From positions 7,032 to 71,031 of the IMG/VR virus record IMGVR_UViG_3300035520_000763: a stretch of 64,000 nt of DNA. One strand, 5' to 3'. This DNA is from a virus (Duplodnaviria > Heunggongvirae > Uroviricota > Caudoviricetes). The notes below the pieces were generated by a model. It saw only the letters and a list, made by a program, of their open reading frames with translations, did not search any database and was not told the DNA's origin. Positions 35,859-44,865 of this stretch are shown one piece after another. How positions within the stretch are numbered: the first letter of the stretch is position 1; each line of letters starts with the position of its first letter. The position numbers and the translations under genes are program-made.

Positions 35859-36072
35859 AATATTCCCTCCAATCTAAGAAAAACACATCAGTTACATTCA
35901 TTTGCAATGCACGAGCAATAGAAATCATTGTAGATTGAGTAGGGTCTTCTTCAAAATTTGCAATCTTATTTAAAGCAGACTTCGAAACACCCGACTTCCT
36001 GCTCAATTCCCTATATGTTATGCCATTTTCATACATAATCACTGACAATCTATTTGTATCATGCATTTGCAT
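35848..36072 (-). CDS. XRE-family HTH regulator
   Basis: ITYRELSRKSGVSKSALNKIAN...PT...IARAL. Confidence 0.85.
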   Translation of the reverse strand: MQMHDTNRLSVIMYENGITYRELSRKSGVSKSALNKIANFEEDPTQSTMISIARALQMNVTDVFFLDWREYYGD

Positions 36073-36215
36073 ACTCCTTTAAGATTTAAAAGAAGTATGT
36101 GTATTTCCAGCTAGAAATATCCCCTAAATTGATAATATTCTAATTTGTGTCCTTTATGGTGGACATTTTTAATTATATAGATACATTTAAAATTTCCAAT
36201 AATATCCGCCGAAAA

Positions 36216-36746
36216 TCATAAATGTGTTTTATTTAAAAATGTTTCAATATCATATCTATAATTTGTTCTCAATAAATGATTTTTTATTTCGATTGGATTC
36301 ATTTTTAACACATCATCAATATTAATAGATTTTTTTGATAGAGCAGAAGTGTACTGTACAAAATCTTCAATACCGACAAAATACGTCTTATTATCCAAAT
36401 CTCTAAAATTAATTATAAATCCAAATACACCTTTGTGTTTAGACCATTTTTGAAGTCCTAATATTTGACACTTACGAATCATGAACGACTGTTTCTTTGT
36501 TTTGTCCTCGAAATCTTCTCGCCAAAAAGTCAATGATTTTTCTTTTGTGGATTTAAGTTCAAGTCCATAAAATGTTCTTGTATTGTCATCGAACAAGATA
36601 AAATCACATTCGTTATTAGATGAAAACCTTGTTTCATTTCCTCCGCTCCATGCGGCAGCATTATCATTTAATCTTTTATGTAATACATGTTCAGGAAGAG
36701 ATTGGATAAAAGAATTTTCAAAAACCTTTCCGAAATTTTGAGCTAT
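36216..36746 (-). CDS. recU: RecU-like Holliday junction resolvase
   Basis: GKVFE...CDFILF...GLELKST...Q..GL; likely ATA start after AGGTGGTG. Confidence 0.7.
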   Translation of the reverse strand: MAQNFGKVFENSFIQSLPEHVLHKRLNDNAAAWSGGNETRFSSNNECDFILFDDNTRTFYGLELKSTKEKSLTFWREDFEDKTKKQSFMIRKCQILGLQKWSKHKGVFGFIINFRDLDNKTYFVGIEDFVQYTSALSKKSINIDDVLKMNPIEIKNHLLRTNYRYDIETFLNKTHL

Positions 36747-36937
36747 TCTTTCTTCACCACCTTTAACCATGACCAGTCTTGTTTTTGCCCGCATTTTGGA
36801 CACTTTTTATCTGTTGGAGTAATTTCAGTCCAGCAGCGATAACACTGAGCATACCAGCCGTCAGGATTGATGTATGGTTCAACCGGTGTTGATTTTGATA
36901 TATCTTGCAAATTCATAGTACAACTTCCTTTTGTCAT
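36743..36937 (-). CDS. small Zn-ribbon protein
   Basis: CYRC...CPKCGQ. Confidence 0.6.
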   Translation of the reverse strand: MTKGSCTMNLQDISKSTPVEPYINPDGWYAQCYRCWTEITPTDKKCPKCGQKQDWSWLKVVKKE

Positions 36938-36956
36938 CAGTATATGAGTTATGGAA

Positions 36957-38177
36957 TTAAGTTAATTCAATTGGATAACAACATTTAATACCTTTATCAT
37001 TCACAACTAATATGGTTTGTGAAGGGTTCCCAGTCAATCTCTTTTGGCGAGTATATTCATCACCAGAACCGCAAAGACTTCCAGATTGAACAACCTTAAT
37101 ACCAGATATGTCTTCCATTGCAGGATAATGTTTATGACCACACAAGATACAATAAGGTGTCATTTTTGCCCACAGACATAATTTTGCAATTGATGCATCA
37201 GATACTGTATCAAAATCACCATGAACAGCAAAATATAACCTCTCTCTTACAAAAAATGTTGAAAGTGTATCATCAACGGTTTCATCTATAACAGTAATGT
37301 TGCTTACATTTTTCAACATTGATTTGATAAACCAAATAATAAGCGTATCTAATCTTTCTCCAAGCAGCGCATCTTCTTTTTCATCTAAACGACTATGATT
37401 TCCAGATACTCCCCTTAATTCTACTGTATTAAAATATTTTCCTAATTCATAAACAAAATCAGATATATATTCACAAGCTAATTTTACTTGCTCAATTACA
37501 TTTTCTTTATTTGTTACGGAGATTACTTTGTGTATAGATCCTGATATAAGATCTCCTAAAAGAACACAAACGCAATTTTCTGCTTTATGAATTTTTTGAA
37601 TTTCAATAATTTCAGATAAATATTGATTTAAACGTTCTTTTGCAATTTCTGAATCATAAACACCATTAAAATTATAATATGTAGCACCAATATGTAAATC
37701 TGATAAACAAACAATCATATCATTTTCGCTATGGGCAACGAGTGGTGTATAAGATAAATATCTATTATCAGAAATATCAGATAACATATTTTCTAATTTT
37801 TCAACAGTTGTTTCAAGACGAGATTCTTCACGCAATCTACGATTTATGTCAAGTCTTTCATCAAAAAGTTTTCTTTTTTCTTTCTGGATTTCCTGCTTTT
37901 CTAACCTTAATTTTTGGAAATATTCATCAGTATTACCATCAGTTTTCTTCTGGCTTTCTTTCCACTTATAATATTCGGACACAAAAGAGCCACCAGTAAT
38001 AAACTGACTGCTCTTACGTAGAGTGTCATAATGAATATTTAGATTATATTTTTCTACAAGTTCATTCCATTCTACATCTGTTATTTTTTGAACTTTATTA
38101 GAACAATCCTTTAATAATCGTTCATATGATTCTGGTGTTAATCCATACTTTGATAATTCTTCTTCAAAATTATACAA
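36957..38177 (-). CDS. calcineurin-like metallophosphoesterase (SPbeta YonJ-like position)
   Basis: LSDLHIG, LGDLISG, GNH, HGD and GHKH motifs. Confidence 0.88.
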   Translation of the reverse strand: MYNFEEELSKYGLTPESYERLLKDCSNKVQKITDVEWNELVEKYNLNIHYDTLRKSSQFITGGSFVSEYYKWKESQKKTDGNTDEYFQKLRLEKQEIQKEKRKLFDERLDINRRLREESRLETTVEKLENMLSDISDNRYLSYTPLVAHSENDMIVCLSDLHIGATYYNFNGVYDSEIAKERLNQYLSEIIEIQKIHKAENCVCVLLGDLISGSIHKVISVTNKENVIEQVKLACEYISDFVYELGKYFNTVELRGVSGNHSRLDEKEDALLGERLDTLIIWFIKSMLKNVSNITVIDETVDDTLSTFFVRERLYFAVHGDFDTVSDASIAKLCLWAKMTPYCILCGHKHYPAMEDISGIKVVQSGSLCGSGDEYTRQKRLTGNPSQTILVVNDKGIKCCYPIELT

Positions 38178-38192
38178 TCAAACACCAACTCT

Positions 38193-38396
38193 CTATTCTT
38201 TATCATCTGGGAGTTCGAATACCAACTTAAAATCACAAGTAGTAATTCCATCTGGAATCTCAGCAATAACCTGCTCAGTAATATCTTCGCCAGTATTAGT
38301 GTCAATCAACTTTAAATTCTCTACTGAAATATTCTTTAAATCTAAAGTCTTCTTACATGGTGTTGTTTTACTTTCCGTTTTCTTGATCTTAAACAT
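38193..38396 (-). CDS. hypothetical protein
   Basis: 67 aa, SD AAGGAG. Confidence 0.65.
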   Translation of the reverse strand: MFKIKKTESKTTPCKKTLDLKNISVENLKLIDTNTGEDITEQVIAEIPDGITTCDFKLVFELPDDKE

Positions 38397-38542
38397 ATAT
38401 TATTTTCTCCTTTTATTCCTTTATATTTTTATGCATATTTGAGTAAATATCCGTAAAAATAACTATTGTGCGGATATTTGCTTAACTAAATTGTATCAGC
38501 TAATACTAATAGATTTTTGTCTCAATACCTACCCAAAAGAAA

Positions 38543-39130
38543 ACAAGTGACAATACTACAGAATAGTAGTACTATCACTTGTCATAGAGAGGTAAATAGA
38601 TTGTAAAAATTGCAAAAAGCATCTATTATCAGACACTTACAAAAGAACTGAAATATCTTTCATAATTTCAACCAATTTTCGTACCTATAAGCAGATACAT
38701 CATAATTGAGCTTTTAACTCCTATTTTCTTCCTCATTAAACCATTTGTTTAATATCTAATATCTGTACTCGAAAGTACCTTTTGATCAAATCTTGTGAAT
38801 AACGAAACGATTTTCAAAATATCAAAATATCAAAATATCAAATTGTTGAAATTACAAATTAGCAAAATAACGCTTCACGATACATATCACGCCAATTATT
38901 TTTGATAATTTGAGCCAGTATAATGACTGGTCGGTATTAAAGACTTTCATCTTTATCTTCTTTTTATATGTAAAGTAAGTTTTATTCACTTATCTATTCT
39001 TTTAGTACTATATGGTTAATACAAAACCTTGCAGCATTACACTTCACCTGCAACCGAAGCGATTGACAATCACAAAATCCACTTCAGTTCTTGCGCAAGT
39101 GCCTGATATTGGTAGAAGAGGAGAGTAGTA
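38543..39130 (-). ncRNA. large structured RNA candidate (3' of the 204-aa gene)
   Basis: 26-nt long-range helix 39083-39108 / 38627-38652 with three G-U pairs; inner helix 38841-38854 / 38663-38677; many hairpins; (UAUUUUGA)x3; terminal terminator hairpin. Confidence 0.65.
38814..38842. repeat. octamer tandem repeat (TCAAAATA)x3.6
   Basis: TCAAAATATCAAAATATCAAAATATCAAA. Confidence 0.9.
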
Positions 39131-39745
39131 CTATCGAAGCACTACATCCTCAAATTTATCATTTACATCATAGGTTGGTTCAAAATTAACAGCCGTATTA
39201 ATTTCAATTGCATCCAACTTTGCTGATACTTCATCACATTCCTTAGAAATCTTTTTAATTAGACCCTTTACATCGTTACGGTCAAACTGAATAGAAGTTT
39301 TCTCAATTACATTGTAGTAATATCTAATCTGATTACCGTCCTGAAAATTGAATTTATAATCTGAGCCTTGTTTCTGCTTTTCCGAAGGCTTAATATCAAC
39401 AATATTATTTAATGCATAAACAAATTGCTGCTTTTTCTTATTCATTGAAATTGCATTATCTATATTAATCTCTGTACCGGCTTTTGCCTTTGCGATAGCA
39501 TCTTGCAGAGATTCCTTCTCTTTAATTACTTTAACAGCAAAATCAATAACGTCATTTGGTGTAAAATCTACGTCATATGGTTTCTGTGCGGTAATCACTT
39601 CATCAGAAGCTTCGTTATTGGCTTTTGAACGCAGATGTTCTTCTATTGTAGTAGTTACAAAACCTCTGTTAGATAAATATTGATGCGCCGTGATTAGCAG
39701 ATTATCAAGATAATTTGCATAACGATAAGATTCCTTTAAATTCAT
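39131..39745 (-). CDS. 204-aa coiled-coil protein, possibly a remote DIP1984/DUF6847-like family member
   Basis: Helical hairpin pattern; C-terminal TSIQFDRNDVKGLIKKISKECDEVSAKLDAIEINT resembles the family's STVDV...LSKE.RELD.KIQ..N (by eye only). Confidence 0.45.
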   Translation of the reverse strand: MNLKESYRYANYLDNLLITAHQYLSNRGFVTTTIEEHLRSKANNEASDEVITAQKPYDVDFTPNDVIDFAVKVIKEKESLQDAIAKAKAGTEINIDNAISMNKKKQQFVYALNNIVDIKPSEKQKQGSDYKFNFQDGNQIRYYYNVIEKTSIQFDRNDVKGLIKKISKECDEVSAKLDAIEINTAVNFEPTYDVNDKFEDVVLR

Positions 39746-39815
39746 ATTTTTCTCCTTTTAATCCTTTGGTTTTTTATTATAATTTTCTACTTGTCTAAGA
39801 ACTAATTTTATAATT

Positions 39816-40082
39816 TTATTGTTTTAACTTTTTACTAGGTTTAAAACTTATACACTTTGCAGTTGGTATTTCTTCAATGTTTCCATCAACACTTTTTCCA
39901 ATATACGAATTTCTAATGTAAGGCGTAAATGTTCCAAAACCCTCAATTTTAATTTTTCTATTACTTATTAATTCTTCTTTTAAAACATTAATAAACGAAT
40001 TTATAATTTGTTCAATATCCTTTTTAGTAAATTTTTCACGATTATTATTCCAAACCGTATTTATTATTTCGTTTTTTACTAT
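39816..40082 (-). CDS. second HU/IHF family protein (ATA start, missed by the ORF track)
   Basis: (M)VKNEIINTVW...TKKDIEQIINSFINVLKEEL...IKIEGFGTF...IPTAKCISFKPSKKLK; SD AAGGAG. Confidence 0.8.
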   Translation of the reverse strand: MVKNEIINTVWNNNREKFTKKDIEQIINSFINVLKEELISNRKIKIEGFGTFTPYIRNSYIGKSVDGNIEEIPTAKCISFKPSKKLKQ

Positions 40083-40178
40083 GAAATACCACTCCTTTTT
40101 ATCCTATCCTAAAGCATCCTTATGAAGCATAAAAATTATTTCGGTGCTATCGAAATAATTTTATACTTCCAAAAAAAT

Positions 40179-43019
40179 TTAGGGAACTTTTTTTGAAAAA
40201 TTGCAGTTATAAATAGAGATTTCACCAGTATCATCCTCAATTAAAAACGTGTCTATTTTATTATATTGATTCAATAAATCTGTTAAAATATCATTTTTAT
40301 AATTGAACAATATATAAAACAAAATGTTCTTGATGGATAAATTTTTTTGAGATTCTAATTGTTTTAATAAACGATACATTGTATGTTCGTTAAGTTTCAT
40401 TCTATTTATATCATATAATAAATTCTCTTTTGCTCTAACAATTCGTTCATGTTTTTCTTCACCAGATAAGAATGGGTCAGAAGCAACAACCTTATTATAC
40501 GAAAGAGTAGTATTTGCCAAATTAAGTATTTTAGGTATTTGTTTTTTTACAACTTTATTTATATCATAATTTTTTGGCTTAAAAATTTCTGCTATTGATA
40601 AAAAATCACTGCCTTTTGATTTTGAAGAACGTTTATTTCCAATACAATCATGTAAAATATCCATGCTTGTATTGTATTTTTGATAATCTTTTTTATCAAC
40701 ATTCTTATAATTTTTTGTATCAGCAATATATCCAAGAAAATATGGCATTTTTTTTCTACCATCCGTCATAGTTAAAAGATTTTCATACTTTTTACGCATT
40801 TTTTTTAATTCAATAGTATTATCAACAGGATATTCTTTCTTTGCTTTATCAATTTCAATATTAGACATAACATCTAATTGACATACATCATAATAAATTT
40901 CTTTTATGTGTTCATATTGACTCTCCACGGACTCGCCAGACTTAGCCACTATATCCCATAATAAAGAATTTAATTCCTGAGATAAATTTACAATCTCTCC
41001 AATTTTATTATTGCTCGTCTTATCATCCAAATCCGTCAAATCTTCATATGTATAATGTCTTTTAGATTTTGGTGGATTAATATTTCTTGTTGGAACTTTG
41101 AAAAGATGGTAATTTCTTTTTGCTGCATTAATTAAAATTTGATTATTAGTTATAAGCAAACTATCACTATCGAAATCTGCTCCCGACAGTCTTTCAAGTA
41201 TATTTTCATTTATACTATTAATACATATAATATTTGATGTAAGATTAAAATACATATCTATATTTTCATTTGCGACATTTTCGGCGATAAATAGATTGCC
41301 TATGGTAACATGAGGCGATCTGCTGCCTAAAATTGTAATATTATAATCATATCTAGTATTATGTATAGTCCCTGGTGATAGAGTAGGAGTGCCATCAAAT
41401 TTTCCAATAGACTGTAATAACATTTCATATGGATTTCCTAACAATGTAGCATAGGTGCCGTCTAATAAAATATGTCCTTTTTTCATATTTCTTAAATATG
41501 ACCTGCATAAATCTTTTTTGAAATCATAATAAATTTTCGTCTGTTCAAATCCACAATCATAATTTAGCATTTTATAAACAACTTCATTTTTGTTTCTCAT
41601 TATATTATCATCTTTAAATTCGTTTTCTGCTTTAAATTTTAAATGATAACGCATTACATCAACATCAGTATTTAAAAGATTAATATAATCAAGACCATCT
41701 TTAACTATGTTAGATATTTCTTCTTCTGAAAGCTGTAATGTATTTAACAATTGATAATGCGCCTGTACTAAACGCCCATCAAAAAAATGAGTATCTTTAT
41801 CATATTTAACTACCCCAAAATAAGGATATATATTATCAAACCATGTCTGTAAATCTCCAAATTTGAAAAATTTGATACTCGATGGAGTAGTAATAAGCTT
41901 AATATCAGAAATATCTTTAGCAATAGTGGTACCATTTAATTGTGAAATATCTTTAATTCCATTATCAGAAAAGAATTTTTGAATATTTGTATTAAAACAA
42001 CATGATTTAAAAAACTTATTTCTTAAAAGAATCATGCCTTTAGTAGAATATTCACTCATCAACGATATATCAATTAAGGACTGTCCGTCCCAAATTGAAT
42101 TTTTAATAGTCATTTCCTTTTCTTCTGTTTTTAAAAAACCATTTTCTCCTAAATCGGTACATACTGCCTCTTCTTTAAAAATACTTTCATAATCATCAAT
42201 AACTAAAAAATTTTCTGGTTTAATTTCGATAGTTCCAATTATGCTGCTGGTTGGAAGTGCAATATATGCTTCAAACGCAGCAATGTCTAATTCTTCACCA
42301 TTTTTTATATCTAAACCACATTGTTCAGATTTATGCATATCAAAATAAAGTCGTTTATCAATGAATAAACATTTACCAACTCTTGCAGAGCCACTTGAAC
42401 GCTTAAAACGGCAATAATTGATTCCATTACACCGAAATCCTTCTTTATAACACCATTTTCGCAGCTCTTTTGCAGATTTTATGGTTTTCAAAGTCCCCGC
42501 TAATCTATAAGTGTAAGTCATATTCTGCGTATCATATTCACAAACAAATGGTTTGATTAACAAAGAATTATCAATCTTATTATAAAATGGCTCGTCAATT
42601 TTAATAGCTACCAAAATTTCTGTACCGTCCTCATCTACATCAGTAGCATAACCATTATCCAAATTATAATCTCTAAGATTATATCCATTTTTTACATATG
42701 TGTTTTTTGCTGTTTTATTAAATTCTTTAACAGCATATTTAAATGTTACATTTATAATCTTTGAAGAATATTCTTTACCTTTTGCAAAAAATGATAATGA
42801 ATCTTTTTTCTTTTTTTCTTCTTTGTTATAAACTTTTTCTGCAACATTGCGAAGTTCTATCAAATCTAAGCTATAATCAAAAGCATTAATATACCTATTG
42901 AAATTATCTGTTCCATCCTTACGGGTGAGAGCGTACCCATAAGGAACATTTTTAATATAATTGTTTGCTAAATACAAATCTTTAGCATCTATAGATGGTA
43001 TATAAATTGAGTTACTCAT
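40179..43019 (-). CDS. yonO: YonO-like single-subunit DNA-dependent RNA polymerase (RdRP-like two-barrel)
   Basis: 946 aa from MSNSIY; KRSSGSARVGKCLF, IWDGQSL, LRNKFFK, GSRSPH, and the metal-binding LSGADFDSD. Confidence 0.85.
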   Translation of the reverse strand: MSNSIYIPSIDAKDLYLANNYIKNVPYGYALTRKDGTDNFNRYINAFDYSLDLIELRNVAEKVYNKEEKKKKDSLSFFAKGKEYSSKIINVTFKYAVKEFNKTAKNTYVKNGYNLRDYNLDNGYATDVDEDGTEILVAIKIDEPFYNKIDNSLLIKPFVCEYDTQNMTYTYRLAGTLKTIKSAKELRKWCYKEGFRCNGINYCRFKRSSGSARVGKCLFIDKRLYFDMHKSEQCGLDIKNGEELDIAAFEAYIALPTSSIIGTIEIKPENFLVIDDYESIFKEEAVCTDLGENGFLKTEEKEMTIKNSIWDGQSLIDISLMSEYSTKGMILLRNKFFKSCCFNTNIQKFFSDNGIKDISQLNGTTIAKDISDIKLITTPSSIKFFKFGDLQTWFDNIYPYFGVVKYDKDTHFFDGRLVQAHYQLLNTLQLSEEEISNIVKDGLDYINLLNTDVDVMRYHLKFKAENEFKDDNIMRNKNEVVYKMLNYDCGFEQTKIYYDFKKDLCRSYLRNMKKGHILLDGTYATLLGNPYEMLLQSIGKFDGTPTLSPGTIHNTRYDYNITILGSRSPHVTIGNLFIAENVANENIDMYFNLTSNIICINSINENILERLSGADFDSDSLLITNNQILINAAKRNYHLFKVPTRNINPPKSKRHYTYEDLTDLDDKTSNNKIGEIVNLSQELNSLLWDIVAKSGESVESQYEHIKEIYYDVCQLDVMSNIEIDKAKKEYPVDNTIELKKMRKKYENLLTMTDGRKKMPYFLGYIADTKNYKNVDKKDYQKYNTSMDILHDCIGNKRSSKSKGSDFLSIAEIFKPKNYDINKVVKKQIPKILNLANTTLSYNKVVASDPFLSGEEKHERIVRAKENLLYDINRMKLNEHTMYRLLKQLESQKNLSIKNILFYILFNYKNDILTDLLNQYNKIDTFLIEDDTGEISIYNCNFSKKVP

Positions 43020-44865
43020 TAAAATCATCCTCCCAAAAAATTCGGCAATCATTATATTTTTCAACGTAATTTATTATATTACGCATAGTATTTTCTAATA
43101 AAAGAGTAATAGCGTTTTCAGAAGTGAAATCACAGTCACATAAAGATACTTCATCTGATTCATATATTTCTTTTAAATTGATTTTTATTAGAACACTCGG
43201 TATTCCACAAGAAAATGAAAAAATTGCCTTCCATAAGTTATTCTTACAATTATTTATTTTATCAACAAGTCTCAAAGGAACTTCGTATTCACTCAAAAAA
43301 TTTCCAAAACAATTTCTTAATCCATCAATACATTCTTCAAAATTATTATCAAGCATTGTATCATATATACAATGAGAATCAATATATCCTTTTAATCGAA
43401 TTCCAGAACATTTATAGTCATAATAATTTTTTTCATATTTCAAGGTAATATTACAATTTATATTTTTATGATTCTTCAAATCATTTATCATTAAAATATG
43501 CTTTTCATTTTTTAAAATGCTTTCTAAATATTCTTTGTCATGGATTTCTTTAATAGCATACTGTATATTTTCTTCTAAATCTTTTAAATCAAAAACATCT
43601 TTTAAATAATGATTACTAAACACTTCTTCAAAATTTTTATCATGGATTTTTGCAAGAACGGTATATTTTCCGTCTTTAAGTCTTATTTTGTATTGTTCCC
43701 TCTCAAATTTTGATAAGTCTGTTTCAAGATCTAATATTTTCTGCCCAATTTCAATTGTTTCATGATAGATATATTTAAACTTACTACGAGCTTCTTTTGG
43801 AATACTAATCTCTTCTAAAGTATGTACCATTTTACTAAATACAATTCTTGGAAATTTAGCAGAATTAAATTGATTTATATTCCAATTGTTATAATGTATC
43901 AAAATAGAATTGTAAGATATATGTTGTGTTTCAATAGACAATTTAATTCCAGCTTCATAAGTTCTTCCCTTTATATGTTCCAAACTAAAATAAACATTGT
44001 CATTTTTTGGAAGTCCTAATTCATTTCTCGCCTGCTCTTCAATTCCATCGTTAATAATTTTTAAAACATCATCTTTTAAGTATTTTACGCAATTTTTCTT
44101 CTTGATTATTTCATAACAAGATACTTGATCCTCATAACACATTTCCTTAATTGTTTCTGTGACTTTATCACGCTGGTCTTCACTCATGATATATTGCCAT
44201 AACCAATCCAGTTTTTCTATTCGCTGTTTATAATTAAGTAAATCTTTTCTGGTTATTTGATTTTTTAGCTTTTGAATAGTGTTAGCATAAAAATCTCTTT
44301 TTATATATTCCTTTGAATAGCATTTACCATCATGATATAAATATGTAAAACTCGGAATTTCATTTACGTCAGTTTTATACATATATTCTTTAATATTAAC
44401 TTCTACAACATCATTTTCCAACTCATTCCATTTACAAAAATAATCATCACCTGTTTTTCTGTTCGTAAAAAACATTTCAAAATAAATAACTTCACCGGTA
44501 GAGGTATAAACCGTTACATCTGGTCTATAATCACCAAACTTCGTATTCCACGTTTTTTCAACTTCGATATAATCAACTTCAAACAATTCATCTTCTATAT
44601 AAAACTTACTTCCTTTTTCAAAAAGCCAATTTTTACAAAAGAAATGAAGCTGACTTTCTTTTGTACACAATCCAGTTATATGATAATAATGCGATTGTTC
44701 CTTTGTACTACTTAATGCTCTTGGTTTAACGTTTCCACCACAACAAGGGCAGTAGTAGTCCTTTTCTTTTTCTGCTTTACTAATATGAATAAGATTCGCA
44801 AATTTATCATCGGAGTTTCCATCATAAGCGATGATTAGTTGCGGCAAATATTCAAAAATATCCAT
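43012..44865 (-). CDS. CoiA-like nuclease-domain protein
   Basis: YCPCCG...HYYH...C..ES.LH...YRPDV...FEMFFTN. Confidence 0.65.
   Translation of the reverse strand: MDIFEYLPQLIIAYDGNSDDKFANLIHISKAEKEKDYYCPCCGGNVKPRALSSTKEQSHYYHITGLCTKESQLHFFCKNWLFEKGSKFYIEDELFEVDYIEVEKTWNTKFGDYRPDVTVYTSTGEVIYFEMFFTNRKTGDDYFCKWNELENDVVEVNIKEYMYKTDVNEIPSFTYLYHDGKCYSKEYIKRDFYANTIQKLKNQITRKDLLNYKQRIEKLDWLWQYIMSEDQRDKVTETIKEMCYEDQVSCYEIIKKKNCVKYLKDDVLKIINDGIEEQARNELGLPKNDNVYFSLEHIKGRTYEAGIKLSIETQHISYNSILIHYNNWNINQFNSAKFPRIVFSKMVHTLEEISIPKEARSKFKYIYHETIEIGQKILDLETDLSKFEREQYKIRLKDGKYTVLAKIHDKNFEEVFSNHYLKDVFDLKDLEENIQYAIKEIHDKEYLESILKNEKHILMINDLKNHKNINCNITLKYEKNYYDYKCSGIRLKGYIDSHCIYDTMLDNNFEECIDGLRNCFGNFLSEYEVPLRLVDKINNCKNNLWKAIFSFSCGIPSVLIKINLKEIYESDEVSLCDCDFTSENAITLLLENTMRNIINYVEKYNDCRIFWEDDFNE

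What the first reader, a model, noticed from the sequence alone, without database searches (positions are those of the whole stretch)
38543..39745. Candidate new protein-RNA module: coiled-coil gene followed by a ~590-nt ornate RNA with an octamer repeat and switchable ends
Seen: (a) a 26-nt inverted repeat (39083-39108 / 38627-38652) in which three of four differences are G-U wobbles on the minus strand only, pointing to selection on RNA rather than DNA; (b) an inner helix (38841-38854 / 38663-38677) enclosing (UAUUUUGA)x3 and GUAC-UUUCGA-GUAC, AUUAAAC/GUUUAAU and GAGUU/AGCUC hairpins; (c) further hairpins UUGCAG/CUGCAA, GUGAUU/AAUCGC and CCAGU/ACUGG; (d) a 12-nt direct repeat GAUAGUACUACU, once overlapping the gene's stop codon (39124-39135) and once in the 5' arm of the terminal terminator (38565-38576), so the stop-codon region can compete for the terminator's 3' arm. 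It is not a tRNA, and I find no group I or II intron core. Inference: the 204-aa protein (possibly DIP1984/DUF6847-like; I recall similar short-repeat-containing 3' regions behind that family but cannot verify this) oligomerises on this RNA, with the repeats as iterated binding sites. It lies in the operon directly behind the phage RNA polymerase and HU.
Basis: partly seen in the sequence, partly recalled or inferred. Interest (0 to 1): 0.85.

Follow-up and report, generated by a model that had tools for sequence, protein, structure and literature searches.

The report
New large phage RNA behind DIP1984-like gene
Right behind a small phage gene of unknown function lies a conserved, elaborately folded RNA of about 480-600 bases that is in no RNA catalogue and always travels with that gene, so the pair is probably an undescribed protein-RNA unit of gut-bacterial phages.

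Summary
The finding is real and larger than described. On the minus strand, the 204-aa gene (39745-39131) is followed by about 600 nt with no conserved reading frame, ending in an intrinsic terminator (38583-38542).

- **Structure:** comparison with more than 100 related loci (protein identity down to 33%, G+C 28-60%) shows a 29-bp closing helix P1, continued by P2 into a helix of about 46 bp. A nearly invariant H-type pseudoknot sits at its base, followed by a second pseudoknot and a variable interior of about 330 nt. All but the interior are backed by compensatory changes.
- **Strand:** G-U outnumbers A-C 149 to 36 in P1. This points to RNA on the gene's strand.
- **Linkage:** gene and RNA co-occur in both directions (90 of 91 loci; 32 of 32 motif hits).
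- **Catalogues:** Rfam 15, ARAGORN and the literature searched have nothing.
- **Protein:** acidic, predicted to form a homodimer, with the fold of PDB 3KDQ (the entry I take to be the DIP1984 protein). It fails the Pfam DUF6847 model.
- **Not supported:** The octamer repeat is specific to one clade.

Earlier notes of this scan report smaller, different RNAs behind DIP1984 genes on other DNA. I confirmed one such case. Function is unknown. A protein-RNA particle is my best guess.

The parts
39131..39745 (-). 204-aa gene: acidic coiled-coil protein with two helix / beta-hairpin / helix units and the fold of PDB 3KDQ; predicted homodimer
   Evidence: ORF. 1095 homologues. 1096 representatives of 50%-identity clusters. 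Fold match 3kdq_A with Z 9.5. pI 5.2. Dimer model ipSAE 0.69 against a best control of 0.00. No Pfam, PHROG, NCBIfam or PADLOC family.
39125..39145 (-). Hairpin GUAGUGC / GUACUAC with the stop codon (39133-39131) in its loop
   Evidence: Read from the sequence. Present in the minimum-energy fold. In 54 of 69 distinct relatives at least 4 bp enclose the stop codon.
39080..39108 (-). P1, 5' arm of the long-range closing helix
   Evidence: 93.5% of cells paired in 16 relatives, with up to 4 pair types per position.
39061..39077 (-). P2, 5' strand (G39067 bulged). It is separated from P1 only by a 2x2 AG/GA internal loop (39079-39078 / 38657-38656).
   Evidence: 92.2% of cells paired, with compensatory changes such as CG to UA and UA to CG.
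39029..39060 (-). PK1, an H-type pseudoknot. Stem a is 39060-39055 with 39046-39041. Stem b is 39053-39048 with 39034-39029. It is nearly invariant across the family.
   Evidence: 96.1% of cells paired and 0 of 500 shuffles reach the observed score. Pair 8-25 is GC in 55, CG in 6 and UA in 1. The closing pair of stem b has 5 pair types.
39005..39028 (-). Hairpin HP2 (39028-39025 / 39017-39014), whose loop (39022-39018) pairs with 39009-39005 to form a second pseudoknot, PK2, in the AT-rich clade
   Evidence: HP2 is 95% paired with UA, AU and CG at one position. PK2 has 80 of 80 cells paired, with GC/AU and UA/CG swaps.
38674..39004 (-). Variable AU-rich interior. It holds the octamer repeat (about 38810-38853) and hairpins specific to this window.
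   Evidence: Repeat family D1. Fold z -1.5. An 8-nt period and UUUG enrichment occur only in the AT-rich clade. No reading frame is conserved.
38658..38678 (-). Conserved 3' motif AAAUUGGUUGAAAUUAUGAAA, which contains the P2 3' strand (38673-38658)
   Evidence: The related motif AAAUGGUUGAAGUUGCAU occupies the same place in GC-rich relatives.
38627..38655 (-). P1, 3' arm
38542..38583 (-). Intrinsic terminator: 18-bp hairpin followed by a U tract
   Evidence: 88% of cells paired with many compensatory changes.
39816..40103 (-). Context: HU/IHF-like gene upstream, with no ATG, GTG or TTG start
40179..43064 (-). Context: 961-aa protein, phrog_8308, with a weak match to an RdRP-like family. I read it as a YonO-type phage RNA polymerase.
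   Evidence: Homologues lie upstream in 28 AT-rich loci only.

Best explanation
The 3' untranslated region of the 204-aa gene encodes a genuine, uncatalogued, large structured RNA. Its core is about 480 nt (39108-38627), or about 600 nt with the stop-codon hairpin and the terminator. Gene and RNA form one mobile two-part module found in phages and prophages of gut Clostridia.

Shown: the RNA's ends close in a quasi-continuous helix of about 46 bp (P1 plus P2). A nearly invariant H-type pseudoknot starts directly after the last P2 pair, so the two may stack (my inference). A second pseudoknot follows, the interior is variable, and a terminator ends the unit. Selection acts on the gene's strand.

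Inferred: gene and RNA are made as one transcript. The long perfect helix is cut by host RNase III, which would release a closed, nuclease-resistant RNA and leave the stop-codon hairpin as the 3' end of the mRNA. The RNA then works together with the dimeric protein as a ribonucleoprotein, with the invariant pseudoknot as the recognition site, either for the protein or for a conserved host component.

The cellular role is unknown. It may concern RNA metabolism during infection, or defence and counter-defence.
For: - **Conservation:** parts of the non-coding stretch are more conserved than the protein. One block is 85% identical over 78 nt where the protein is 58% identical. A core of about 34 nt is kept at 33% protein identity and across G+C of 28-60%.
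- **Closing helix:** found in 31 of 31 loci by RNAduplex and in 90 of 91 distinct loci above all shuffled controls. The arm sequences are unrelated between clades.
- **Strand asymmetry:** G-U 149 against A-C 36 under symmetric scoring, binomial p 1.6e-17.
- **Covariation:** PK1 is 96.1% paired and 0 of 500 shuffles reach it. P1 is 93.5%, P2 92.2%, PK2 80 of 80 cells, terminator 88%. The divergent clade keeps the pseudoknot topology with different letters.
- **Thermodynamics:** whole-RNA fold z -6.0, which recovers the stop hairpin, P1, P2, PK1 stem b and the terminator without constraints.
- **Linkage:** all 32 testable IMG/VR hits to the pseudoknot pattern have the gene directly upstream on the same strand. 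The pattern is single-copy in two host genomes.
- **Unit of inheritance:** the surrounding genes differ between clades, so the pair itself is what is kept together.
- **Transcript hints:** contigs from mouse-gut metatranscriptome libraries of 3 studies cover the homologous RNA. One 1325-nt contig runs from 13 nt before the ATG through the whole RNA. This shows presence in RNA libraries only.
- **Protein:** fold of 3KDQ. Canonical DUF6847 genes also carry a conserved, uncatalogued 3' block. Dimer model 0.69 against a best control of 0.00; the mark was reached by 20 of 30 proteins solved as pairs of one chain and 1 of 23 solved as single chains; the runs agree in at least 99% of contacts and the partner's pLDDT is 91.
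Against: - No direct evidence of a stable processed RNA, of RNase III cleavage, or of protein-RNA binding.
- The protein is acidic (pI 4.8-5.5 in 16 of 17) and matches no known RNA-binding domain.
- The pseudoknot is far more conserved than the protein. This fits a conserved host target or an intrinsic RNA activity at least as well as it fits binding by the encoded protein.
- The metatranscriptome evidence consists of contigs, so carried-over DNA is not excluded.
- The sequences used for covariation are related, so the shuffle statistics overstate independence.
Confidence: 0.55

Rival explanations
1. A stand-alone trans-acting RNA, in the manner of ROOL or GOLLD. The upstream gene only supplies the promoter or serves an accessory role. 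The invariant pseudoknot binds a universal host component (ribosome, RNA polymerase, a tRNA or RNA-processing enzyme) or has activity of its own.
For: The pseudoknot core is nearly invariant while the protein drops to 33% identity. The protein is acidic. A tRNA gene follows the terminator in 21 of 78 loci, a setting I recall as typical of GOLLD and ROOL (own knowledge).
Against: Linkage to this one gene family is strict, in the same orientation and at the same distance, in very different surroundings. The 3KDQ-fold relatives of family DUF6847 also carry a 3' RNA-like block of their own.
Confidence: 0.2
2. A purely cis-acting 3' UTR. The long helix and stop-codon hairpin would set mRNA stability (RNase III retroregulation, as at lambda sib) or control read-through into downstream genes or tRNAs. 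No product would act in trans.
For: The element starts at the stop codon with a hairpin and ends in a terminator. In this window a 12-nt repeat could let the stop region compete with the terminator. In GC-rich relatives the 3' end overlaps a convergent XRE-type (helix-turn-helix) regulator gene.
Against: About 480 nt with two pseudoknots and an invariant core is far more than such control needs. The stop-region/terminator interplay is not conserved (mean z -0.25). The stop hairpin is missing in 15 of 69 loci. Downstream genes differ between clades.
Confidence: 0.15
3. A DNA-level element: a replication origin with iterons, a recombination or packaging site, or a small transposable element bounded by inverted repeats.
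For: AT-rich sequence, octamer direct repeats and long inverted repeats. It lies next to DNA-metabolism genes.
Against: Strand asymmetry of G-U over A-C. Pseudoknot covariation. Fixed position and orientation behind one gene, and single copy per genome. Repeats are absent from GC-rich relatives. Inverted-repeat sequences covary rather than being conserved.
Confidence: 0.03
4. A toxin-antitoxin or abortive-infection pair with an RNA antitoxin (type III-like).
For: A mobile two-part protein-RNA module in accessory regions of prophages. One clade has short tandem repeats.
Against: The RNA lies downstream and is not an array of processed repeats. No ToxN-type, Abi or PADLOC family matches. The protein is an acidic coiled-coil dimer with no recognisable nuclease fold.
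Confidence: 0.05

Closest known systems
ROOL and GOLLD RNAs (Rfam RF03087, RF01998): large ornate non-coding RNAs of prophages
   Same: Several hundred nucleotides, multiple pseudoknots and long helices, carried by phages and prophages of Firmicutes, function unknown. A tRNA gene follows in 21 of 78 loci here, which I recall as typical of these RNAs (own knowledge).
   Different: No match to either covariance model in the window or in 15 relatives. This RNA is always the 3' UTR of one particular protein gene. ROOL and GOLLD have no known obligate protein-gene partner and form RNA-only assemblies (PMC12286853).
DIP1984 / DUF6847 genes (PF20935; I take PDB 3KDQ to be the DIP1984 protein) with their own 3' structured RNAs, as noted earlier in this scan
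   Same: A small coiled-coil protein of the same fold (Z 9.5), followed directly by a conserved, uncatalogued non-coding block. Found in bacteria and phages.
   Different: The protein here is about 60 aa longer and fails the Pfam model. The RNA is two to three times larger and shares no alignable sequence with the block behind canonical Lachnospirales DUF6847 genes. That partnership is itself unpublished as far as my searches reach.
TnpB / IscB with omega (reRNA) RNAs
   Same: The partner RNA is encoded at or behind the 3' end of the protein's own gene, contains a pseudoknot, and travels with the gene on mobile DNA.
   Different: No RuvC or HNH nuclease. The protein is a 204-aa acidic coiled coil. 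There is no guide segment or transposon end. No match to HEARO or other Rfam models at this site.
Ro60 (Rsr) with bacterial Y RNAs; OLE RNA with OapA/B/C
   Same: A dedicated structured RNA whose ends pair in a long stem, encoded next to its protein partner.
   Different: No TROVE or Oap domains. No Y RNA or OLE model match. Binding has not been tested.
RNase III processing helices flanking rRNAs and phage early RNAs (T7 R sites, lambda sib)
   Same: A helix of 25-50 bp, nearly perfect, formed by sequences flanking a long RNA domain.
   Different: Cleavage was not tested. The enclosed RNA is neither an rRNA nor an mRNA.

Membership tests
ROOL / GOLLD / OLE / HEARO / raiA and all other Rfam 15 families | Match to the family's covariance model at or near its gathering score | tested here: not met
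   Window at gathering threshold: only two tRNAs elsewhere. Region at E up to 10: only chance-level snoRNA and miRNA rows. In 15 homologous loci nothing lies on the RNA.
tRNA / tmRNA | Detected by ARAGORN or by the Rfam tRNA and tmRNA models | tested here: not met
   ARAGORN finds 0 genes in 36000-41000. Rfam finds none.
H-type pseudoknot | Two helices in a-b-a'-b' order, each supported by pairing and by compensatory change | tested here: met
   96.1% of cells paired, 4 pairs changed on both sides, 0 of 500 shuffles reach the score, slid controls 25-37% paired. The variant clade keeps the topology with different sequence.
Intrinsic terminator | G+C-containing hairpin followed by a U tract at the end of the unit | tested here: met
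   18-bp stem plus UUCUUUU at 38583-38542. The stem covaries in relatives.
RNase III substrate | About 20 bp or more of near-perfect double-stranded RNA | tested here: met
   P1 is 29 bp and P1 plus P2 about 46 bp. Helices are 19-54 bp in relatives.
RNase III substrate | Cleavage by RNase III in vivo or in vitro | not testable with these tools
   Only contigs were available, and these cannot show RNA ends.
DIP1984 / DUF6847 protein family (PF20935) | Pfam HMM score above the gathering threshold | tested here: not met
   0 families for the window protein. Best E 0.18 in 1 of 8 members. No hit in 18 diverse members. NCBIfam gives none.
DIP1984 / DUF6847 protein family (PF20935) | Fold of PDB 3KDQ, the solved structure I take to represent the family | tested here: met
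   VIA-align 3kdq_A: Z 9.5, rmsd 2.9 A, 145 of 152 residues. Foldseek probability 1.0, TM 0.55 / 0.71. An Atlas cluster in which 14% of members carry DUF6847 gives TM 0.48 / 0.55. Model pLDDT is 80.6.
DIP1984 / DUF6847 protein family (PF20935) | Gene followed by a conserved structured RNA (a feature proposed by earlier scan notes, not published) | tested here: met
   Here. Canonical family: in 11 of 11 Lachnospirales loci a conserved non-coding block with no Rfam match follows the gene. Its structure was not analysed further.
Type III toxin-antitoxin (ToxIN, CptIN, TenpIN) | Tandem-repeat antitoxin RNA upstream of an endoribonuclease toxin gene | tested here: not met
   The RNA is downstream. 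The 8-nt period occurs in one clade only. No toxin family in Pfam or PADLOC.
Ro60-Y RNA ribonucleoprotein | TROVE-domain protein plus a match to a Y RNA model | tested here: not met
   No Pfam domain. No Rfam match.

The most novel reading that the evidence does not exclude
The module may be a phage branch of a widespread, wholly undescribed class of ribonucleoprotein. In it, dimeric 3KDQ-fold (DIP1984-like) proteins would each work with a dedicated structured RNA encoded in their own 3' UTR. This branch would have evolved an RNA of 480-600 nt, excised by RNase III, whose invariant pseudoknot engages a conserved host machine during infection or lysogeny.
Probability: 0.35. Interest if true: 0.9.

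Novelty: new variant of a known kind. Interest (0 to 1): 0.8.

Why it matters
Large, highly structured bacterial RNAs are rare, and each class found so far (OLE, GOLLD, ROOL, raiA) has opened new biology. This one has several unusual strengths.

- **Abundance:** the partner protein family has 1096 cluster representatives at 50% identity.
- **Architecture:** supported by covariation, with a closing helix of about 46 bp and tandem pseudoknots.
- **A fixed genetic partner:** strict linkage to one gene gives an immediate experimental handle through pull-down, structure determination and deletion.
- **A tractable host:** cultured carriers exist, for example a Lachnospiraceae bacterium A4 prophage (L030).

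The finding also ties a phage lineage to the recurring, still unpublished pattern of 3KDQ-fold (DIP1984/DUF6847) genes followed by private RNAs. If that pattern is real, it would give a function-defining clue for a large family of unknown proteins.

Tried and rejected
- **Rfam:** window at gathering threshold, region at E up to 10, 15 homologous loci and 11 canonical DUF6847 loci. Nothing lies on the RNA.
- **ARAGORN:** no tRNA or tmRNA.
- **Protein family libraries** (Pfam, PHROGs, NCBIfam, PADLOC): nothing significant.
- **PDB by sequence,** with the single protein and with a profile: nothing.
- **GenBank phage records,** by DNA and by protein: no match.
- **RNA runs for the window itself:** no RNA holder was listed.
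rejected as the main pairing in favour of P2.
- **GUGAUU/AAUCGC hairpin:** rejected. It competes with P2 and pseudoknot stem a, and relies on bases that are specific to this window.
- **Switchable ends through the 12-nt repeat:** not conserved.
- **Octamer repeats as a family feature:** absent from GC-rich clades.
- **A conserved small ORF in the region:** frames are at most 45 aa here, and ORF positions differ between relatives.
- **A P2-like pairing in GC-rich relatives:** sought by eye and with RNAalifold. There the 3' motif pairs with an internal segment instead, and I did not resolve this.
- **Pseudoknot pattern in 400 sampled genomes of the class:** not found in those searched.
- **Literature searches** for DIP1984, DUF6847, DUF7873, 3KDQ and new large phage RNAs: nothing relevant.
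- **Not done:** no covariance model was built, because the full RNA exceeds the tool's 400-column limit.
Full report
**Setting.** The window is part of an IMG/VR virus record of 138.6 kb. All features lie on the minus strand. The order is:
- a 961-aa protein (phrog_8308, weakly RdRP-like; I read it as a YonO-type phage RNA polymerase);
- an HU/IHF-like ORF;
- the 204-aa gene at 39745-39131;
- about 590 nt in which no stop-to-stop frame exceeds 45 aa;
- an intrinsic terminator at 38583-38542.

**Checking the observation.** The 26-nt inverted repeat is real. It belongs to a 29-bp helix, P1 (39108-39080 with 38655-38627), that holds 5 G-U pairs, no A-C and one other mismatch. An unconstrained fold of 38540-39146 gives -162.2 kcal/mol with z -6.0. 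It recovers the stop-codon hairpin, P1, a second helix P2, the UUGCAG/CUGCAA hairpin and the terminator. The interior alone (38674-39004) folds no better than shuffles (z -1.5). The octamer repeat and the 12-nt direct repeat are both present.

**Relatives.**
- The protein has 1095 homologues in the 90%-identity cluster collection.
- A profile search finds 1096 representatives of 50%-identity clusters at E up to 0.001.
- I fetched 28 viral loci and 80 genome loci from Lachnospiraceae, Oscillospiraceae and other Clostridia. Protein identity goes down to 33% and G+C ranges from 28 to 60%.
- Related loci show a comparable stretch after the gene in which no ORF position is shared.
- Parts of that stretch are more conserved than the protein. 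One block is 85% identical over 78 nt where the protein is 58% identical.
- nhmmer finds a core of about 34 nt, CGGUUCAG-GUGCAG-AUGAACUAUAANG-CUGCAC, about 90 nt after the stop codon in nearly all loci.

**Structure supported by comparison.**
1. **Closing helix P1.** RNAduplex finds that the 25-33 nt before the core pair with a segment 220-480 nt downstream in all 31 loci tested, although the arm sequences are unrelated between clades. In a protein-anchored scan, 90 of 91 distinct loci exceed the maximum of the shuffled controls, with loops of 296-455 nt. With G-U and A-C scored alike, the helices hold 149 G-U against 36 A-C (p 1.6e-17). Selection therefore acts on the transcript of the gene's strand. 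The loci are related, so this p-value overstates independence.
2. **Pseudoknot PK1.** On an ungapped alignment of 62 sequences, the a-b-a'-b' structure has 96.1% of cells paired. The compensatory changes include GC to CG or UA at pair 8-25 and five pair types at the closing pair of stem b. No shuffle out of 500 reaches the observed score, and slid controls pair at 25-37%. A divergent clade (L043, L044, L048 and others) has different letters but the same topology, for example GCGUC-UGACAG-UACGC-AA-CUGUUG.
3. **P2, HP2 and PK2 in the AT-rich clade (16 sequences, including the window).**
   - P2 (39077-39061 with 38673-38658) is 92.2% paired with compensatory changes.
   - P2 is separated from P1 only by a 2x2 AG/GA loop, so the two form a rod of about 46 bp.
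   - PK1 stem a starts directly after the last P2 pair.
   - Hairpin HP2 is 95% paired.
   - The HP2 loop forms a second pseudoknot, PK2, with 80 of 80 cells paired and two swapped pairs.
4. **Stop-codon hairpin.** At least 4 bp enclose the stop codon in 54 of 69 distinct loci. The feature is frequent but not universal.
5. **Terminator.** It covaries in relatives, at 88% paired.

**What did not hold.**
- **Inner helix:** only 73.8% paired, with no compensation. It uses the same 3' strand as P2.
- **GUGAUU/AAUCGC:** competes with P2 and PK1 stem a, and depends on bases specific to this window.
- **The 12-nt repeat:** unique among 76 loci. Complementarity between the stop region and the terminator is not conserved (mean z -0.25).
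- **The 8-nt period and UUUG excess:** they recur in all 11 AT-rich relatives, mostly weakly, and are absent from GC-rich relatives.

**Linkage.**
- An exact scan of IMG/VR for the pseudoknot pattern gave 33 stretches. All 32 that could be tested have the gene 70-100 nt upstream on the same strand.
- The pattern is single-copy in two host genomes.
- It was not found in 400 other sampled genomes of the class. This fits a sporadic mobile element.
- The surroundings differ between clades. The polymerase lies upstream only in AT-rich viral loci (28 of 108).
- In about 37 GC-rich prophage loci, a convergent XRE-type (helix-turn-helix) regulator gene overlaps the 3' end of the RNA.
- A tRNA follows the terminator in 21 of 78 loci, mostly tRNA-Lys(UUU).
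- The gene-RNA pair is therefore the conserved unit.

**Is it known?** Rfam 15 has no match in the window, in 15 relatives, or in 11 canonical DUF6847 loci. ARAGORN finds nothing. GenBank phage records hold no relative. Literature searches found nothing on this RNA or on the protein family.

**The protein.**
- **Model:** AlphaFold2 gives pLDDT 80.6. The fold is two helix / beta-hairpin / helix units.
- **Best structural match:** PDB 3KDQ, a Corynebacterium diphtheriae protein of unknown function that I take to be DIP1984. VIA-align gives Z 9.5, rmsd 2.9 A and 145 of 152 residues. Prefoldin-like rows score lower.
- **ESM Atlas neighbours:** clusters in which part of the members carry DUF6847 (14-19%) or DUF7873 (26%).
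- **Sequence models:** none reach threshold.
- **Charge:** the protein is acidic, with pI 4.8-5.5 in 16 of 17 members.
- **Oligomer:** a homodimer model scores ipSAE 0.69 against a best control of 0.00. The mark was reached by 20 of 30 proteins solved as pairs of one chain and by 1 of 23 solved as single chains. The runs agree in at least 99% of contacts and the partner's pLDDT is 91.

**Expression.** No RNA run was listed for the window. For the homologous prophage of Lachnospiraceae bacterium A4 (L030), contigs from mouse-gut metatranscriptome libraries of three studies cover the RNA. One 1325-nt contig runs from 13 nt before the ATG through the whole RNA into a tRNA-like sequence. Contigs show presence in RNA libraries only. 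They cannot show RNA ends, and they do not exclude DNA carry-over.

**Earlier notes of this scan.** A word look-up returned nine notes. Eight were shown, and six of those carry follow-up reports. They describe DIP1984/DUF6847 genes in other genomes, each followed by a different uncatalogued RNA of about 200 nt. I treated these as leads and tested one case. Of 121 Lachnospirales genomes, 11 carry a PF20935 gene. In all 11 a conserved non-coding block follows the gene, with the motifs GGUUCGAAUCC, UUACCA and GAGGGUGGG..GGGGA, and with no Rfam match. That block is not alignable with the RNA here. The pattern of a 3KDQ-fold gene followed by a private RNA therefore holds in two RNA families unrelated in sequence. 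This raises my odds for a protein-RNA partnership. The large phage-type RNA itself did not appear in the look-ups.

**Interpretation.**
- **Shown:** a conserved, strand-specific, pseudoknotted RNA structure that is the 3' UTR of one gene family and moves with it.
- **Inferred:** co-transcription; excision by RNase III at the long helix, leaving the stop hairpin on the mRNA; and action together with the dimeric protein.
- **Against direct binding by the protein:** the protein is acidic, and PK1 is far more conserved than the protein.
- **Rival kept in play:** the points above leave room for a stand-alone RNA that targets a conserved host component.
- **Unlikely:** a purely cis-regulatory UTR, a DNA element, or a type III-like toxin-antitoxin pair, for the reasons listed under the rival explanations.

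**Verdict.** This is a new class of large structured RNA tied to a divergent 3KDQ-fold (DIP1984-like) gene. Its function is unknown and its interest is high.

Noticed in passing
window 39816-40103 (-): The HU/IHF-like ORF has no ATG, GTG or TTG start. An ATA codon (40083-40081) lies 9 nt after a strong AAAGGAG ribosome-binding site, which suggests a non-canonical start.
   Followed up: partly
L109:3977-4363 (-), L093:3994-4374 (-), and about 35 more GC-rich loci: A convergent XRE-type (helix-turn-helix) regulator gene overlaps the last ~100 nt of the RNA in antisense. The overlap covers the P1 3' arm and the terminator hairpin, and the hairpin itself encodes the conserved peptide EQQAE(S/A)CCS. 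This could allow antisense or RNase III cross-talk with a prophage regulator.
   Followed up: partly
L008:4212-4284, L023:4211-4285, L030, L036 and others: In AT-rich relatives a tRNA gene, mostly tRNA-Lys(UUU), follows soon after the RNA's terminator (21 of 78 loci). No tRNA follows in the window.
   Followed up: partly
L054:1275-1345: The pseudoknot core is tandemly duplicated in this locus: a second, slightly degenerate copy lies 35 nt after the first.
   Followed up: no
L143-L153 (downstream of canonical PF20935 genes): Canonical DUF6847 genes of Lachnospirales are followed by a conserved ~230-nt non-coding block. It carries a tRNA T-arm-like GGUUCGAAUCC and GAGGGUGGG..GGGGA motifs, and has no Rfam match. 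Genome G002 carries both this gene and the phage-type module.
   Followed up: partly
L047:1326-1396; L067:5390-5604: Known phage-associated RNAs lie near the module in relatives: a skipping-rope RNA upstream in L047, and a HEARO RNA plus two tRNAs downstream in L067.
   Followed up: no
window 43012-43064 (-): As listed, the 617-aa ORF (43012-44865) and the 961-aa polymerase ORF (TTG start at 43064) overlap by 53 nt. The polymerase start may lie further downstream.
   Followed up: no
L109:1300-5720: In this genome the module sits in an island of only about 4.4 kb, between a host MFS transporter gene and a LysR regulator gene. I found no recognisable integrase. It may be a prophage remnant or a small satellite-like element.
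   Followed up: no
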